DNA of 64,000 nucleotides from a bacterium (GCA_021810605.1 JAJZIL010000003.1:214-64213), one strand, 5' to 3'; counted from the first letter of the stretch, positions 13,865-27,599 are shown. Notes: a model not told the origin generated them from the sequence alone. A program made the numbers and translations.

Positions 13865-13927
13865 AATATAAATCACCTCCTTATTTTTTAATTATTCATA
13901 TTATAATTTTTATCAATAAAAAAGACA

Positions 13928-13943
13928 TTGCTATGCATAGCAA
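13928..13943. promoter_or_regulatory. perfect 16-nt palindrome TTGCTATGCATAGCAA, putative operator upstream of precursor 1
   Basis: Lies about 64 bp upstream of the ATG; one of four conserved copies (14887, 20632, 27383) inside a conserved ~40-bp block. Confidence 0.55.
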
Positions 13944-14108
13944 ATTTCTATCTGGCATTAATTTAAAGGAATAATTTAGGTAGATAAATTTTTATTGAAA
14001 ATAGAGTATTTTTTTGAATTTCAGATAATTATTTTATATAGAGTATATAGATTTTGATAATAAAACTATTTTATGAATTTCTTCCTCCACTCATATATTT
14101 TTGTTTCT

Positions 14109-14825
14109 TTATTCTAATAGAATTGTGTTTCTAAAGTCATTATATATTAAGGTTTTTAAATAAACATAATCTTCAACTTTGTATGAGTTTTGATTTATTT
14201 TCATTAGAGATTTCTTTGTCTCTATTGAAATATAATTTTTATCATCAATCCAATTGTCAATAAATTCTTGAGAATTTATTGTATTTATTTCAAAAAAAGA
14301 GATATCTCCCTTATATAAGAGTATATCCTGTAGTATTCTAATTAAATATTTTTTAAATTTTATATTTAATTCATTTTCATTTTTTACAGTAAAATACCAA
14401 TGATCTAGCCTCCAAAAGTATTCTATTATTTGTGTTTTTATAGATTTTTTAATATTGCTATAATCTATAATAGAAAGTTTTCTTTGAAAAATATTATTTC
14501 CTAAAATTATTTTAGAGTTGGCTAAATGTAAAAGGAAAAATTCTCCATGATTTCCATGTTGAAAGTTACTCCATCCTATTAGTTCTAAATCAAACAAACT
14601 ATGTAATGTTATATCGATTCTATTATATTTAGATATTATTTTTTTCAAATTAATTAAATCCTTACTATCATATTTATCAAGAACTAAACAAAAATCATAA
14701 TCACTATAATCCGAATTAATATCTTTATTAAAAGCATTGGAACCATAATATAATAAACATACTATTCTATTCCCAAATAATAAAGAAATTTCTTCACTTA
14801 GCTTATTTTCCAATTTGTAATTCAT
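14109..14825 (-). CDS. nucleotidyltransferase-fold protein (Pol-beta-like NTase)
   Basis: YYGSNAFNKDINSDYSDYD matches the hG[GS]x9-13Dh[DE] NTase motif; preceded by a copy of the conserved operator block. Confidence 0.5.
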   Translation of the reverse strand: MNYKLENKLSEEISLLFGNRIVCLLYYGSNAFNKDINSDYSDYDFCLVLDKYDSKDLINLKKIISKYNRIDITLHSLFDLELIGWSNFQHGNHGEFFLLHLANSKIILGNNIFQRKLSIIDYSNIKKSIKTQIIEYFWRLDHWYFTVKNENELNIKFKKYLIRILQDILLYKGDISFFEINTINSQEFIDNWIDDKNYISIETKKSLMKINQNSYKVEDYVYLKTLIYNDFRNTILLE

Positions 14826-14886
14826 TATTAATATTAAAAATTTATATTTATATAGTATATTCTAATACTTATTAATAATTTTGTCT

Positions 14887-14902
14887 TTACTATGCATAAC
14901 AA
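14887..14902. promoter_or_regulatory. operator-like imperfect palindrome TTACTATGCATAACAA upstream of the NTase gene
   Basis: About 61 bp upstream of the start; the flanking cttattaataattttgtcttt block is near-identical to that upstream of precursor 3. Confidence 0.5.
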
Positions 14903-15004
14903 AACTTTATTTTGTATTAAGTTAAAGAAAGTATTAAGAGGTATAAATTTGCAAATAGTAACTATTATTGTATAATCAAGTATATAATATTATATATTTT
15001 TAAT

Positions 15005-15952
15005 ATGAAAAAACATACTATACTTGGAGCTGGAGGTTCTATAGGTAATTCTCTAACTCACGAATTATTAAAAAATAAACAAGAAGTGAGATTAGTTTCT
15101 AGAAGTGGATATTCTTCTGAAGGAACTACTTCTGTTAAAGCAGATTTAACTTCATTTGAAGATACATATAAAAGTATTAAGGGTTCAGATATTGTATATT
15201 TATGTGTTGGATTACCTTATGATTATAAAATTTGGAAAGATCAATGGCCAAAAATTATGAAAAATACTATTGATGCATGTATTAAAGCTAATACAAAATT
15301 AATATTTTTTGATAATGTTTATATGTATGGAAAAGTAGAGGGAAAAATGACAGAAGAGACTCCATATAATCCTTGTAGTAAAAAAGGTGAGATTAGAGCA
15401 CAGATTGATAGAATGTTAGAAGAGCAAATAGATAAAAAAAATATTAGAGCAATTATAGCTAGGTCAGCTGATCTTTATGGTCCTTATGCTACAAAAACTA
15501 GTATTCCTTATGTTTTAGTTATGAATAGATTACTTAATAAAAAAAGACCTCTATGGATGGTTAATGCTAAAGTTAAACATTCATTCACAAATACACTTGA
15601 TTGCGCTAGAGGACTATATTTATTAGGAAGTTCAGATAATAATTTTAATCAAGTATGGCATCTTCCTACAGTTAATGAGCCTATTAATATGGAAGATTTT
15701 ATTAATATATTGAATAAAGAGTTAAATCTGAATTTTAAACCTTATGTTTTAAATAAGTTTATAATAAAGATGACTGGAATAATAGATAGTACTACTAAAG
15801 AACTATATGAGATGTTATATCAGTTCGATTCAGATTATGAATTTGATTCCTCAAAATTTAATAAACACTTTAATTATACACCAATAAGTTACAAAGAAGG
15901 AATAAAAGAAACTATAGAATTTTTAAATAAAGTTAATAAGAAAGATTTATAA
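15005..15952 (+). CDS. NAD-dependent epimerase/dehydratase family (SDR) protein
   Basis: N-terminal Rossmann motif ILGAGGSIGNSL; about 315 aa. Confidence 0.7.
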   Translation: MKKHTILGAGGSIGNSLTHELLKNKQEVRLVSRSGYSSEGTTSVKADLTSFEDTYKSIKGSDIVYLCVGLPYDYKIWKDQWPKIMKNTIDACIKANTKLIFFDNVYMYGKVEGKMTEETPYNPCSKKGEIRAQIDRMLEEQIDKKNIRAIIARSADLYGPYATKTSIPYVLVMNRLLNKKRPLWMVNAKVKHSFTNTLDCARGLYLLGSSDNNFNQVWHLPTVNEPINMEDFINILNKELNLNFKPYVLNKFIIKMTGIIDSTTKELYEMLYQFDSDYEFDSSKFNKHFNYTPISYKEGIKETIEFLNKVNKKDL

Positions 15953-26390: not shown

Positions 26391-26445
26391 TAGAACAATT
26401 ACGTCTTCTTTATATTTTTAATGTAATTTTTTCTTATTTTAATAA

Positions 26446-27153
26446 TTATATTACTAATTCTTTTGCAATAGATCTCATTGACTCTCGAATTAATTTTACT
26501 TCTTTATCTTTTATAGCAATAATATTTTGATTACTATATTGTACTCCAATTTTAGAAGGAGATTTTTTCCAATTAACTATTATAGTGTTACTAGAAATAT
26601 TAGGATTTTCTAATTTTTTATAAATTACGCCAAAATAGATATTATCAGTATATTTTTTTGCCAAATTTTTTGCTATTTTTAATGTTAATCCAGATACAAT
26701 CCAATCATCAATAAAGAGAATCCTCAATGAATGCCTATCTAAATCACTATTTTTAGATATTTTTATAAGATTTAATATAATATCATTAAATCTTTCTTCT
26801 AAATAACTATAATATTCTAATTTAAGATACATAAAGTGTATTTTATGATCAATTGTAAGAAAGGGTTTATTATTGTTCATTTCTTTCCAAGTATAATAAG
26901 TTGCTAAACTAAAAAGCCTTCCTCCTGTATCACATCCTATTATTATTTGAGGCTTAACTTCTTCAATAAATTTACTTAAAGGTATCGATAACACTAGAAG
27001 ATCTTCTGGATTTAAATACTGAGAGTATTTTAAATTATCAGGTTCTCTTTTTTCTTCAATATTAAACTCTTTATATTCTTTCTCTAAAGTATTTCCAAAG
27101 ATTATATTTACACCATCAAATTTTTGTGTCTTATAATAAAAATCAGTCTCCAT
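26446..27153 (-). CDS. phosphoribosyltransferase-fold protein of unknown role in the graspetide cluster
   Basis: IIIGCDTGGRLFSLATYY and RILFIDDWIVSGLTL resemble the type I PRTase PRPP-binding loops. Confidence 0.35.
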   Translation of the reverse strand: METDFYYKTQKFDGVNIIFGNTLEKEYKEFNIEEKREPDNLKYSQYLNPEDLLVLSIPLSKFIEEVKPQIIIGCDTGGRLFSLATYYTWKEMNNNKPFLTIDHKIHFMYLKLEYYSYLEERFNDIILNLIKISKNSDLDRHSLRILFIDDWIVSGLTLKIAKNLAKKYTDNIYFGVIYKKLENPNISSNTIIVNWKKSPSKIGVQYSNQNIIAIKDKEVKLIRESMRSIAKELVI

Positions 27154-27184
27154 AATAATCTTAAAGTAAGTGGCTTTAAATTTA

Positions 27185-27319
27185 TTAAAGCCACCCTATA
27201 GGCCATTAAATATTATCTCTATCATCATATGCTGTATATGTCTCTTCTCCATTAGTTATTTCTTGAATCTCAGTATCTTGAATCCACTCTAATGGATTAA
27301 CTTCATTTAATGTTTCCAT
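27185..27319 (-). CDS. graspetide-type precursor peptide (44 aa)
   Basis: Hand translation METLNEVNPLEWIQDTEIQEITNGEETYTAYDDRDNINWPIGWL*. Leader shares METL...P(L/I)EW(I/L)xD with precursor 1; core rich in Thr/Tyr and Asp/Glu with no Lys; SD GGAGGTGATTATATT-ATG; operator upstream. Confidence 0.5.
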
Positions 27320-27382
27320 AATATAATCACCTCCTTCTTTTTTTAATTAATTATATTATATTGCTTATTAATAATTTTGTCT

Positions 27383-27398
27383 TTGCTATACATGGCAA
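27383..27398. promoter_or_regulatory. operator-like near-palindrome TTGCTATACATGGCAA upstream of precursor 3
   Basis: About 64 bp upstream of the ATG; embedded in the conserved cttattaataattttgtctttgctata block. Confidence 0.5.
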
Positions 27399-27599
27399 AT
27401 CTCCATTTTACATTGATTTAAAAGAATAATTTTGAGGTATAAATTTACAAATTTATAATATTGTCTCTGGGTATCGTAGACGAAGTTAGAACATTTATAA
27501 AATTAAATCCTTCTTAATATTTCTAAATATTCTTTATTCGTAAGTCTAAGTAATATTATATTTTTCTCAATCTGAAACCTATACTAATAAATTTTATTT

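What the first reader, a model, noticed from the sequence alone, without database searches (positions are those of the whole stretch)
13900..27420. Four copies of a conserved 16-nt palindromic operator (TTGCYATGCATRGCAA) about 60 bp upstream of start codons
Perfect palindromes lie at 13928-13943 (TTGCTATGCATAGCAA) and 20632-20647 (TTGCCATGCATGGCAA). Near-palindromes lie at 27383-27398 and 14887-14902. Each is embedded in a conserved block (aaa.acattgc.atgcat.gcaaat.tcta, or cttattaataattttgtcttt...). Each is positioned 55-65 bp upstream of a minus-strand start: three precursor peptides and a nucleotidyltransferase. This looks like the binding site of a dimeric regulator controlling a small regulon. 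The regulator is not obvious; candidates are the divergent ORF 20637-20981 that starts inside one palindrome, or the distant MarR at 60294.
Basis: seen in the sequence. Interest (0 to 1): 0.7.

Follow-up and report, generated by a model that had tools for sequence, protein, structure and literature searches.

The report
Shared palindromic operator of peptide-gene promoters
Four promoters in a 13.5-kb island of an uncultivated, very AT-rich bacterium share a 16-base palindrome just upstream of a weak -35 box; it is most likely the docking site of an unidentified dimeric regulator that switches on several modified-peptide (RiPP) gene clusters and a few nucleotide-handling enzymes.

Summary
TTGCYATGCATRGCAA occurs at 13928, 14887, 20632 and 27383 (0, 2, 0 and 1 mismatches), against 0.69 expected by chance. 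Each copy lies 61-63 nt upstream of a minus-strand start codon.

Read on the minus strand, each copy belongs to one promoter module:
- the palindrome;
- an abutting weak -35 (A[A/T]G..., with an invariant G);
- a 17-nt spacer;
- a TAnAAT -10 box 21-22 nt after the palindrome, which puts the palindrome centre near -42.5;
- at three of the four copies, a strong Shine-Dalgarno and a precursor peptide starting ME(T/I)L.

I found 22 such sites in about 179 kb from 8 related low-GC genomes. All are intergenic and co-oriented with a gene. The palindrome is the most constrained element.

A 596-Gb genome scan gave only chance-level hits apart from 3 related MAGs, so this is not a widespread repeat.

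Targets are RiPP operons (graspetide-like, YcaO/azoline, S9-peptidase-linked). They also include genes for CYTH, NUDIX, MazG, GreA-C and nucleotidyltransferase-like proteins.

The best reading is an operator for a dimeric transcription factor, probably an activator placed like a class II activator.

Neither proposed regulator is supported. ORF 20637-20981 is a primase-helicase remnant. The MarR gene's own promoter lacks the motif. The regulator remains unknown.

The parts
13928..13943 (-). Operator copy 1, a perfect palindrome TTGCTATGCATAGCAA
   Evidence: 0 mismatches; weight-matrix score 28.5.
13900..13928 (-). Core promoter 1: -35-like ATGTCT (13923-13928; its first base is the last A of the palindrome), a 17-nt spacer, and -10 TATAAT (13900-13905). 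Predicted transcription start near 13893.
   Evidence: Sequence; stacks (the -10 lies 22 nt after the palindrome). The transcription start is inferred, not mapped.
13724..13864 (-). Precursor peptide A, METLKIDIITPIEWLTDNDI*EFDDSIVMWQTHSTHKQDADDTNDD (graspetide-like), interrupted here by TAA at 13802-13804. The Shine-Dalgarno GGAGGTGAT is at 13872-13880.
   Evidence: the intact 46-aa version in strain L005 is; homologous intact precursors in L056, L115 and L119 are.
11869..13689 (-). ATP-grasp peptide maturase with an N-terminal extension (606 aa)
   Evidence: Pfam RimK 1.5e-10; NCBIfam TIGR04187 'ATP-grasp ribosomal peptide maturase' 2.3e-46, below the curated cut-off.
14887..14902 (-). Operator copy 2, degenerate (minus strand TTGTTATGCATAGTAA)
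   Evidence: 2 mismatches; weight-matrix score 16.3, below the best shuffled score of 17.4. Its flanks are homologous to those of site 4.
14859..14887 (-). Core promoter 2: -35-like AAGACA (14882-14887), a 17-nt spacer, -10 TAGAAT (14859-14864). Predicted transcription start near 14852. There is no strong Shine-Dalgarno.
14109..14825 (-). 238-aa protein, a probable nucleotidyltransferase-fold protein (weak evidence)
   Evidence: G-S-x10-D-x-D motif in the sequence; NCBIfam MntA E=0.005, below the cut-off; no Pfam or PDB hit.
20632..20647 (-). Operator copy 3, a perfect palindrome TTGCCATGCATGGCAA
   Evidence: 0 mismatches; weight-matrix score 32.0.
20605..20632 (-). Core promoter 3: -35-like ATGTTA (20627-20632), a 16-nt spacer, -10 TATAAT (20605-20610). 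Predicted transcription start near 20598.
   Evidence: the -10 lies 21 nt after the palindrome.
20409..20570 (-). 53-aa Cys-rich precursor MEILTIEKELSMEDIEDALIEVEESLDTVSSSTCGDGNRCQCNNCSCGNGHRC
   Evidence: it lies directly upstream of the YcaO gene.
16267..20277 (-). Maturation genes of cluster 3: YcaO cyclodehydratase (18997-20277), SagB-type dehydrogenase (18248-18994) and S9 prolyl oligopeptidase (16267-18231)
   Evidence: Pfam YcaO 9.4e-37, Nitroreductase 2.9e-11, Peptidase_S9 4.8e-42; TIGR03604 TOMM SagD 9.7e-54, below the cut-off.
27383..27398 (-). Operator copy 4 (minus strand TTGCCATGTATAGCAA)
   Evidence: 1 mismatch; weight-matrix score 26.7. Strain L002 has TTGCTATGCATGGCAA at the same place.
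27355..27383 (-). Core promoter 4: -35-like AAGACA (27378-27383), a 17-nt spacer, -10 TATAAT (27355-27360). Predicted transcription start near 27348.
   Evidence: Listed by the promoter scan with 10 of 12 matches.
27206..27319 (-). 37-aa precursor METLNEVNPLEWIQDTEIQEITNGEETYTAYDDRDNI
   Evidence: called as a gene in sister strains; orthologue in L007.
23551..27153 (-). Cluster 4 genes: a PRTase-like 235-aa protein (26446-27153), an ATP-grasp maturase (25374-26390) and an ABC exporter (23551-25350)
   Evidence: Pfam RimK 8.2e-11 and ABC_tran 1.5e-29; TIGR04187 2.1e-46; weak HGPRTase similarity.
20637..20981 (+). NOT part of the system: a remnant of a primase-helicase gene.
   Evidence: It matches only internal segments of 400-830-aa proteins. 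Of five scanned, four have an AEP, Toprim or Prim-Pol N-terminus. No Pfam or NCBIfam family was found.

Best explanation
The palindrome is the operator of an unidentified homodimeric DNA-binding regulator, built into a conserved sigma-70-type promoter module.

Read on the minus strand, the module is:
- TTGCYATGCATRGCAA;
- an immediately overlapping, poor -35 hexamer, A[A/T]G[A/T][C/T]N. Its first base is the last A of the palindrome, and the G is invariant;
- a 17-nt spacer;
- TAnAAT;
- a leader of about 28 nt with GGAGGTGAT;
- ATG.

This puts the dyad centre near -42.5, with the two half-sites one helical turn apart. That is the geometry of class II activators (CRP/FNR/NtcA, LuxR, lambda cI at PRM), which touch sigma region 4.

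I therefore think the factor most likely activates these promoters and makes up for the weak -35. In this way it would co-induce three RiPP operons and a nucleotidyltransferase-like gene here. In relatives it would also co-induce CYTH, NUDIX, MazG and GreA-C genes.

Shown: the motif, its positional and orientational regularity, its conservation across genomes, and its lineage restriction.

Inferred: the -10/-35 assignment and the transcription start; that a protein binds; that it activates rather than represses; and what signal it responds to.
For: Statistics within the window:
- 4 hits against 0.69 expected; 3 against 0.22 for TTGC-N8-GCAA.
- No further copy in the window or in 10 kb beyond either end.

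Comparative evidence:
- There are 22 distinct sites in about 179 kb from 8 related genomes (window strain, L007/8, L013, L056, L064=L115, L066, L118, L119).
- The -10 (TAnnnT, with A in the last position at three sites) lies 22 nt after the palindrome in 20 of them, 21 nt in one and 23 nt in one.
- Every site lies upstream of a co-oriented gene.

Constraint:
- In the first 17 promoters stacked, all 16 palindrome columns carry at least 0.9 bit. The sum is about 24 bits.
- Of the flanking columns, only the G at +2 and the C at +4 exceed 1 bit.
- Spacers are the same within a genome but differ between genomes (L013 against the others), while the palindrome is kept.
- The L002 strain has diverged flanks at site 4 but has restored the ATGCAT core.

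Not a widespread repeat:
- The 596-Gb genome scan gave 70 hits. My own calculation expects about 70 by chance.
- Only 4 of them, in 3 low-GC MAGs, have the promoter architecture.
- The metagenome scan gave 27 hits. None has the full architecture, and one (L086) is doubtful.

Support for activation:
- The promoters never have TT at -35 positions 1-2. Other promoters in the window have TTGACA, TTGATA, TTTACA or TTGCAA.
- More distant relatives lack the palindrome. They keep the Shine-Dalgarno and the leader peptide, and they have a canonical TTGATA -35.

No hairpin-type covariation: positions 5 and 12 vary independently, and 226 of 500 shuffles reach the observed covariation score.
Against: - No regulator was identified. 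Apart from MarR, toxin-antitoxin antitoxins and one ECF sigma factor, no DNA-binding protein was found in the roughly 180 kb examined.
- Transcription starts are not mapped, so -42.5 is a prediction.
- The promoters are paralogous copies that exchange sequence by gene conversion. Part of the fixed spacing and similarity may therefore reflect common descent rather than selection.
- A site at -50 to -35 could equally serve a repressor that blocks sigma region 4 or the alpha C-terminal domain.
- About half of the sites have AAGACA, a tolerable -35 (4 of 6 matches), so the promoters may not be strictly activator-dependent.
Confidence: 0.7

Rival explanations
1. The same operator is bound by a repressor. 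A dimer sitting at -50 to -35 blocks sigma region 4 or the alpha C-terminal domain and keeps the RiPP operons silent until a signal releases it. This is typical of MarR-, TetR- and Xre-type regulators of secondary-metabolite clusters.
For: - About half of the sites have a usable -35 (AAGACA, 4 of 6) with a perfect TATAAT and a 17-nt spacer. Such promoters could fire unaided.
- The only classical transcription factor in the window is a MarR-family protein.
- E. coli marO carries TTGCC-N2-GGCAA half-sites that resemble this motif. The sequence appears in PMC8757474. Its role as the MarR site is from my own knowledge.
Against: - The site does not cover the -10 or the transcription start, where most repressors act.
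- The offset from the core promoter is rigidly fixed, and TT is systematically missing from the -35. Both fit activation better.
- Relatives without the palindrome have a canonical -35.
- MarR's own promoter lacks the motif.
Confidence: 0.22
2. There is no dedicated regulator. The similarity is only shared ancestry of a duplicated 'promoter plus leader-peptide' cassette spread by duplication and gene conversion, and the palindrome is a passive or UP-element-like part of it.
For: - The four upstream regions are 74% identical over about 170 nt, including the 5' UTR and the first codons.
- Within a genome, copies share long identical stretches. L013 has three copies with about 44 identical nt.
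- Strain L002 has a chimeric promoter.
Against: - Dyad symmetry is not produced by duplication.
- The palindrome is clearly the most conserved segment across genomes whose spacers and upstream regions have diverged.
- It also precedes unrelated non-peptide genes that lack the Shine-Dalgarno/METL part: CYTH, NUDIX, MazG, GT4 and GreA-C.
Confidence: 0.05
3. The palindrome acts as a nucleic-acid hairpin. It could be a terminator or processing site for read-through transcripts from upstream, a cruciform, or a recombination site of a mobile cassette or MITE.
For: - Site 3 is flagged as terminator-like on the minus strand, with a 6-bp stem and the tail TGTTATTTTT.
- On the sense strand, 97.9% of stem cells can pair if G-U pairs are allowed.
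- The island contains mobile-element debris and transposases occur nearby in relatives.
Against: - The hairpins are weak, at -1.9 to -7 kcal/mol for the minimum-energy folds (site 2 on the + strand does not form the hairpin at all), and z-scores of -0.2 to -1.7 are not significant.
- Most sites are followed by AGACAAAA, not a U-tract.
- There is no covariation beyond column composition.
- There is no Rfam family at any site.
- Orientation and distance to the -10 and the start codon are fixed, unlike MITE or REP elements.
- There are only chance-level hits outside the lineage.
Confidence: 0.03

Closest known systems
Class II activator-dependent promoters of the CRP/FNR/NtcA family (for example NtcA: GTA-N8-TAC, about 22 nt, then TAN3T, centred at -41.5). 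Stated from established knowledge.
   Same: - A 16-bp dyad with half-sites one helical turn apart (TTGCY-N6-RGCAA, equivalently TTGC-N8-GCAA).
- It abuts or overlaps a poor -35.
- It lies 22 nt from a TAnnnT -10 box, giving a predicted centre of -42.5.
- It drives a dispersed regulon.
   Different: - The half-site sequence matches none of the known consensus sites (TGTGA/TCACA, TTGAT/ATCAA, GTA/TAC).
- No cNMP-binding or HTH_Crp protein was seen in the roughly 180 kb examined.
- The centre is 1 bp further upstream than the canonical position.
- Activation is inferred only.
Peptide quorum-sensing boxes of RRNPP/Rgg/ComR/PlcR regulators. These are palindromes upstream of a -10 box, without a good -35, in front of small-peptide and RiPP genes such as the ComR box or the streptide locus. 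Stated from established knowledge.
   Same: - A palindromic box is followed by an A/T tract and a -10 box.
- It sits in front of short peptide genes and their maturation and export genes.
- One box is shared by several operons.
   Different: - No HTH-TPR regulator gene lies next to any of the peptide genes.
- The box sequence is unrelated to the known boxes.
- The organism is not a Firmicute.
MarR-family operators, for example E. coli marO site TACTTGCCAGGGCAACTAAT
   Same: - The half-sites TTGCC/GGCAA resemble those of the motif.
- A MarR-family gene exists in the window (60294-60707; Pfam MarR 1.1e-13).
   Different: - The half-site spacing is 6 bp rather than 2 bp.
- The MarR gene is 33-46 kb away, in an efflux operon. 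That operon's own promoter has a different palindrome and no copy of the motif.
- MarR operators usually cover the -35/-10 region of the adjacent operon.
Regulation of known RiPP clusters (graspetides/microviridins; TOMM or linear azol(in)e peptides)
   Same: The target operons have the standard RiPP layout of precursor, ATP-grasp or YcaO/SagB maturase, peptidase and ABC exporter.
   Different: - One operator is shared by different RiPP classes and by non-RiPP genes.
- The precursors match no NCBIfam precursor family.
- I found no paper linking Patescibacteria with graspetides, or candidate-phyla-radiation RiPP precursors with promoters, and none containing the motif sequence.

Membership tests
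Transcription-factor operator within a sigma-70 promoter (generic) | Over-represented, dyad-symmetric motif at a fixed position and orientation relative to the -10 box and the start codon | tested here: met
   there are 22 sites; the -10 lies 22 nt after the palindrome in 20 of them; all are intergenic and co-oriented with a gene.
Transcription-factor operator within a sigma-70 promoter (generic) | Conserved in orthologous and paralogous promoters of related genomes while the flanks diverge (phylogenetic footprint) | tested here: met
Transcription-factor operator within a sigma-70 promoter (generic) | A cognate DNA-binding protein binds it | not testable with these tools
   No candidate was found in about 180 kb. 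Whole MAGs could not be scanned, and binding needs DAP-seq or EMSA.
Class II CRP/FNR/NtcA-type activated promoter | Site centred near -41.5 and overlapping a weak -35 | tested here: inconclusive
   The centre is predicted at -42.5 from the -10 position and the -35 lacks TT. Transcription starts are not mapped.
Class II CRP/FNR/NtcA-type activated promoter | Consensus half-sites of the family (TGTGA, TTGAT or GTA) | tested here: not met
   The half-site is TTGCY.
Class II CRP/FNR/NtcA-type activated promoter | A CRP/FNR-family protein (cNMP-binding plus HTH_Crp domains) is encoded in the genome | not testable with these tools
   None appears in the Pfam lists of the loci read. Complete genomes were not available.
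MarR-regulated operator | The regulator gene is adjacent and the operator lies in its own (autoregulated) promoter | tested here: not met
   MarR lies at 60294-60707. The motif is absent from 58-64 kb. The operon's own promoter carries ATTAGGATACCTAAT instead.
RRNPP/Rgg/ComR peptide quorum-sensing box | An HTH-TPR regulator is encoded next to the peptide gene | tested here: not met
   No such gene lies next to any of the 14 precursor genes.
MITE/REP-type dispersed repeat | Many copies at unrelated loci with no bias in position or orientation relative to genes | tested here: not met
   There are four copies in the window, all in promoters. Hits outside the lineage are at the chance level.
Intrinsic terminator or structured RNA | A stable stem-loop followed by a U-tract, or covariation, or a known RNA family | tested here: not met
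   Minimum-energy folds of -1.9 to -7 kcal/mol with non-significant z-scores. Only 1 of 4 sites is terminator-like. There is no covariation and no Rfam hit.
Graspetide (ATP-grasp RiPP) gene cluster (targets of sites 1 and 4) | An ATP-grasp peptide maturase next to a short precursor rich in Thr/Ser and Asp/Glu | tested here: met
   TIGR04187 at 2e-46 for both enzymes, although below NCBI's curated cut-off. The ester or amide cross-links themselves are not testable here.
TOMM / linear azol(in)e peptide cluster (target of site 3) | A YcaO cyclodehydratase, a SagB-type dehydrogenase and a Cys/Ser/Thr-rich precursor | tested here: met
   Pfam YcaO 9.4e-37 and Nitroreductase 2.9e-11. TIGR03604 at 9.7e-54, with 182.7 bits against a cut-off of 219. 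The core has 6 Cys.

The most novel reading that the evidence does not exclude
One signal-responsive master activator, placed like a class II activator, co-induces several chemically different RiPP classes together with enzymes that handle nucleotides or alarmones (CYTH, NUDIX, MazG/guanylate kinase, histidine phosphatase, GreA-C). The host would be a small-genome, probably Patescibacteria (CPR) lineage. This would be the first defined transcriptional regulon of such bacteria. It would link peptide production to a nucleotide second-messenger or starvation signal, and the motif could be used to find unannotated precursor genes.
Probability: 0.3. Interest if true: 0.6.

Novelty: new member of a known kind. 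Interest (0 to 1): 0.45.

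Why it matters
If true, the motif gives a concrete handle on gene regulation in an uncultivated, small-genome lineage where almost nothing is known about transcription control.
- It defines a regulon in which three RiPP classes share a promoter with nucleotide-metabolising enzymes.
- It predicts exact transcription starts and a binding site that can be used to fish out the regulator by DAP-seq or DNA-affinity capture.
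- It explains why heterologous expression of these clusters from their native promoters might fail without the factor.
- It is a practical search key. The string 'motif, 22 nt, TAnAAT, GGAGGTGAT, ATGGAAAC' finds precursor peptides that gene callers miss; the site-1 peptide was not called in five of the six sister-strain loci read.

It is still an ordinary kind of object, a transcription-factor operator, and not a new mechanism.

Tried and rejected
1. Widespread repeat or MITE. The genome-contig scan with TTGCYATNNNTRGCAAAGACAA gave 70 hits, about the chance number, and only 4 were real. The metagenome-contig scan gave 27 hits. None had the promoter architecture, and L086 is doubtful. Rejected.

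2. ORF 20637-20981 as the regulator. It is a fragment of a primase-helicase gene, has no protein family, and is absent from the other motif-bearing loci. Rejected.

3. MarR at 60294 as the regulator. There is no motif near its operon, and its own promoter carries a different palindrome. The only point in its favour is a half-site resemblance to E. coli marO (plus my own memory). Not supported, not excluded.

4. A regulator encoded locally. All-against-all clustering of ORFs from 7 genome sets, six motif-bearing and one without the motif (L010/L011), found no shared DNA-binding family. The divergent 246/282-aa family (L007, L056) has no homologue in the window. Extending the window by 10 kb on each side gave no further site and no transcription factor.

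5. RNA hairpin, terminator or known RNA family. Rejected.

6. The palindrome as two back-to-back -35 boxes for divergent promoters. TTGCCA does resemble TTGACA, but no conserved -10 lies 16-18 nt from either half. A possible divergent promoter exists only in L056 and perhaps at site 3. Not general.

7. Alternative sigma factors (sigma-54, ECF, sporulation sigmas). The spacing and hexamers do not fit, judged by inspection of the sequence against consensus sites from memory.

8. Literature. No paper links Patescibacteria with graspetides, or candidate-phyla-radiation RiPP precursors with promoters, and none contains the motif sequence.

9. Taxonomy. The phosphoglycerate mutase search found only uncultured relatives above 50% identity; the closest named ones are Clostridia at 45-48%. 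Two RiPP-gene homologues are labelled 'Patescibacteria group bacterium'. The phylum assignment therefore stays provisional.

10. Precursor families. There are no NCBIfam hits.

Full report
**The observation**

The four sites exist exactly where stated. Allowing up to 3 mismatches, TTGCYATGCATRGCAA matches only 13928 (0 mismatches), 14887 (2), 20632 (0) and 27383 (1). Shuffled sequence gives 0.69 matches on average and never reached 4 in 100 trials.

TTGC-N8-GCAA occurs 3 times against 0.22 expected. A weight matrix built from all sites found later scores these four at 32.0, 28.5, 26.7 and 16.3. The next best position in the window scores 7.7. Site 2, at 16.3, is below the best score seen in shuffled windows (17.4). 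I accept it because its flanks are homologous to those of site 4.

The window has about 25% G+C, which makes a motif holding six G/C bases all the more unusual.

The palindrome edge lies 61-63 nt from a minus-strand ATG at all four sites.

**Anatomy**

All four sites serve minus-strand genes, so I read them on that strand. The layout is constant:
- the palindrome;
- a hexamer that starts with the last A of the palindrome, either AAGACA (sites 2 and 4) or ATGTCT/ATGTTA (sites 1 and 3);
- a spacer of 17 nt (16 nt at site 3);
- TATAAT or TAGAAT;
- at sites 1, 3 and 4, about 20 nt followed by AAGGAGGTGAT (AAGGAAGTGAT at site 3) and ATG GAA AC/AT.. (M-E-T/I-L).

The simple promoter scan lists site 4 as AAGACA-17-TATAAT.

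If the -10 hexamer is taken as -12 to -7, the palindrome spans -50 to -35 and its centre is at -42.5. This is an inference, because no transcription start is mapped.

**Target genes in the window**
- Site 1 drives a 46-codon Thr/Asp-rich precursor and a 606-aa ATP-grasp peptide maturase.
- Site 3 drives a 53-aa precursor with six Cys in its core, then YcaO, a SagB-type dehydrogenase and an S9 prolyl oligopeptidase.
- Site 4 drives a 37-aa precursor, a PRTase-like protein, a second ATP-grasp maturase and an ABC exporter.
- Site 2 drives a 238-aa protein that is only weakly nucleotidyltransferase-like.

**Comparison with relatives**

Exact-protein look-ups returned near-identical strains (L001-L006). 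Homologues of the two ATP-grasp enzymes led to more distant genomes. One DNA-pattern scan of 185,579 species genomes added three MAGs.

In total I found 22 distinct sites in about 179 kb from 8 genomes.
- In 20 of the 22, a -10 box (TAnnnT, with A in the last position at three sites) starts 22 nt after the palindrome. It starts 21 nt after in one and 23 nt after in one.
- Every site is intergenic and points at a gene.
- Fourteen sites drive short peptides that begin ME(T/I/E)L or METD, 60-63 nt downstream. These peptides are followed by ATP-grasp, MvdD-type ATP-grasp plus methyltransferase, YcaO or S9-peptidase genes.
- The other eight sites drive genes that are not precursors:
  - the nucleotidyltransferase-like gene (window);
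  - a CYTH protein, in both L013 and L118;
  - a NUDIX hydrolase (L118);
  - a 76-aa GreA C-terminal-domain protein, followed by a histidine phosphatase (L118);
  - MazG-like and guanylate-kinase-like genes (L064/L115);
  - a GT4 glycosyltransferase, a sugar nucleotidyltransferase and a NUDIX hydrolase (L066);
  - a 67-aa ORF with 246-aa and 234-aa ORFs (L007).

In a stack of the first 17 promoters, all 16 palindrome columns carry at least 0.9 bit against the AT-rich background. Among the flanking columns, only the G two bases after the palindrome (present in all 22 sites) and the C at +4 exceed 1 bit; the -10 T, A and T reach 0.7-0.9 bit.

Spacer sequences are uniform within a genome but differ between genomes. 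The palindrome does not. Strain L002 has a rearranged site-4 promoter that still carries TTGCTATGCATGGCAA.

Two more distant relatives, both labelled 'Patescibacteria group bacterium', have ATP-grasp enzymes 52-57% identical to those in the window. They keep the Shine-Dalgarno and the ME... leader but lack the palindrome. Instead they have a canonical TTGATA -35.

**Specificity**

The pattern TTGCYATNNNTRGCAAAGACAA found 70 places in 596 Gb of genomes. By my calculation that is what chance predicts. Sixty-six are isolated hits in unrelated, mostly higher-GC sequence with none of the promoter architecture.

A slightly tighter pattern found 27 places in the JGI metagenome collection. None had the full architecture, and one (L086) is doubtful.

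The motif is therefore restricted to a narrow lineage and is not a dispersed repeat.

**Mechanism**

Four properties are what one expects of an operator for a dimeric helix-turn-helix protein:
- a dyad whose half-sites, TTGCY and RGCAA, are 11 bp apart centre to centre;
- a fixed position directly against the -35 hexamer;
- the highest constraint in the promoter;
- use in front of unrelated genes.

Positions 5 and 12 vary independently. Ten sites are symmetric and seven are not in the 17-site stack, and 226 of 500 shuffles reach the observed covariation. This fits separate protein contacts to each half-site and gives no support to a base-paired structure.

The position matches class II activators (CRP/FNR/NtcA at -41.5, LuxR at -42.5, lambda cI at PRM; from established knowledge). 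Three observations lean towards activation:
- The -35 hexamers never start with TT. Other promoters in the window read TTGACA, TTGATA, TTTACA or TTGCAA.
- Relatives without the palindrome have a canonical -35.
- The offset to the core promoter is rigid.

None of this is proof. AAGACA with a perfect -10 box could work unaided, and a repressor at -50 to -35 is possible. I put roughly 0.7 on 'operator of a dimeric regulator'. Within that, I put about two to one on activator over repressor.

**The regulator**

I could not identify it.
- ORF 20637-20981 matches only internal segments of about 90 residues in proteins of 400-830 aa. Of five such proteins scanned, four have an AEP, Toprim or Prim-Pol N-terminus. 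It is debris of a mobile-element primase-helicase.
- MarR (60294-60707) is the only classical transcription-factor domain in the window. It lies in an operon of MFS and ABC efflux genes. The promoter of that operon (TTGACA-18-TACAAT, at about 62395-62366 on the minus strand) is followed by a different palindrome, ATTAGGATACCTAAT, and no copy of the motif is near.
- The resemblance of the half-sites to E. coli marO (TACTTGCCAGGGCAACTAAT, seen in PMC8757474; its role as the MarR site is from memory) is only a lead.
- Clustering all ORFs of the motif-bearing loci showed no shared DNA-binding family.
- Ten kilobases beyond each end of the window hold no further site and no regulator.

**Rivals**
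- RNA hairpin or terminator. The minimum-energy folds are only -1.9 to -7 kcal/mol and no better than shuffles (site 2 on the + strand does not form the hairpin). Only site 3 looks terminator-like, and most sites are followed by an A-tract. There is no Rfam match.
- Pure paralogy of a duplicated promoter cassette. This explains the long flanking similarity and the chimeric L002 promoter. It does not explain the dyad symmetry, the conservation profile or the use before non-peptide genes.
- A mobile-element end. This is excluded by the positional regularity.

**Comparison with what is known, and novelty**

In function the element resembles class II CRP/FNR/NtcA sites or the peptide quorum-sensing boxes of Rgg, ComR and PlcR. 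It is not a member of any of these. The half-site differs from theirs, and no cognate regulator gene was found next to any target.

I found no paper linking Patescibacteria with graspetides, or candidate-phyla-radiation RiPP precursors with promoters, and none containing the motif sequence.

It is a new instance of a familiar kind of element. It is of moderate interest because it ties several RiPP classes and nucleotide-handling enzymes into one regulon in a barely studied, probably CPR, small-genome lineage. It also gives a precise bait for finding the regulator and a search key for unannotated precursors.

Noticed in passing
window 13802-13804 (minus strand), within 13724-13864: Precursor peptide A carries an in-frame TAA at codon 21 in this window. 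Sister strain L005 has Gln (CAA) there and an intact 46-aa peptide. The first RiPP cluster may therefore be inactive in this strain.
   Followed up: yes
window 20637-20981, 21049-21731, 22313-22843, 22906-23549, 27600-28203: The island is littered with decayed genes:
- a primase-helicase fragment;
- a truncated Tiki/ChaN-like gene (161 aa against 234 aa);
- an ABC-F remnant (176 aa against 536 aa);
- a split NDK-like gene (53 + 161 aa against 214-224 aa);
- a split histidine phosphatase (45 + 141 aa against 195 aa).
Together they suggest an eroding, once-mobile island.
   Followed up: partly
L002 100-260, compared with window 27300-27440 and 20560-20660: In strain L002 the site-4 promoter is chimeric. 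Upstream of the palindrome it resembles site 4, and downstream it resembles site 3. This looks like gene conversion between paralogous promoters with the breakpoint at the palindrome.
   Followed up: partly
L013 6409-7190; L118 6384-7049; L118 14209-14767; L115 6390-7796; L118 3735-5134: In relatives the same operator drives genes for a CYTH protein (in two genomes), a NUDIX hydrolase, MazG plus guanylate kinase, and GreA-C plus a histidine phosphatase. This set hints at nucleotide or alarmone metabolism.
   Followed up: partly
window 62366-62395 and about 62347-62361 (minus strand): The operon encoding an MFS transporter, MarR, a 116-aa protein and an ABC transporter has a canonical TTGACA-18-TACAAT promoter. 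Directly after it, at the predicted transcription start, lies a perfect 15-bp palindrome, ATTAGGATACCTAAT. This is a likely MarR auto-operator.
   Followed up: partly
L011 7650-7760; L117 9440-9565: More distant 'Patescibacteria group bacterium' relatives keep the GGAGGTGAT Shine-Dalgarno and the ME... leader of the graspetide-like precursor. They replace the operator with TTGATA...TATCAA palindromes that overlap a canonical -35.
   Followed up: partly
window about 13955-13985 and 27410-27440; L007, L008, L064 and L118 upstream blocks: A second, weaker conserved block (TTTAAATCAAT) lies at about -64 to -74, upstream of the palindrome, in roughly half of the promoters. It could be an UP element (alpha C-terminal-domain site) or a second binding site.
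   Followed up: no
L113 1486-4291 (about 6-9 kb beyond the high end of the window): A TldD/PmbA peptidase pair lies close to the island. Such pairs process the YcaO-type peptide microcin B17 in E. coli (from my own knowledge), so they may help mature the azoline peptide.
   Followed up: no
window 30433-35345: A Type III restriction-modification pair (a 955-aa helicase-type res gene and a 682-aa mod gene) lies next to the island. The operator core ATGCAT is itself a classic 6-bp restriction palindrome. No link between the two was tested.
   Followed up: no
window 37698-38264: An array of six tRNA genes (Gln, Gly, Phe, Val, Leu, Leu) lies on the minus strand. A spurious ORF (37728-38072) is read through it.
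   Followed up: yes
L056 6678-6908: In MAG FK3.bin15 the palindrome also has a TAAAAT box 22 nt from its other edge. That box points at a divergent 282-aa repeat protein, whose homologue in L007 (630-1370) sits in a motif-driven operon. This may be bidirectional use of one operator.
   Followed up: partly
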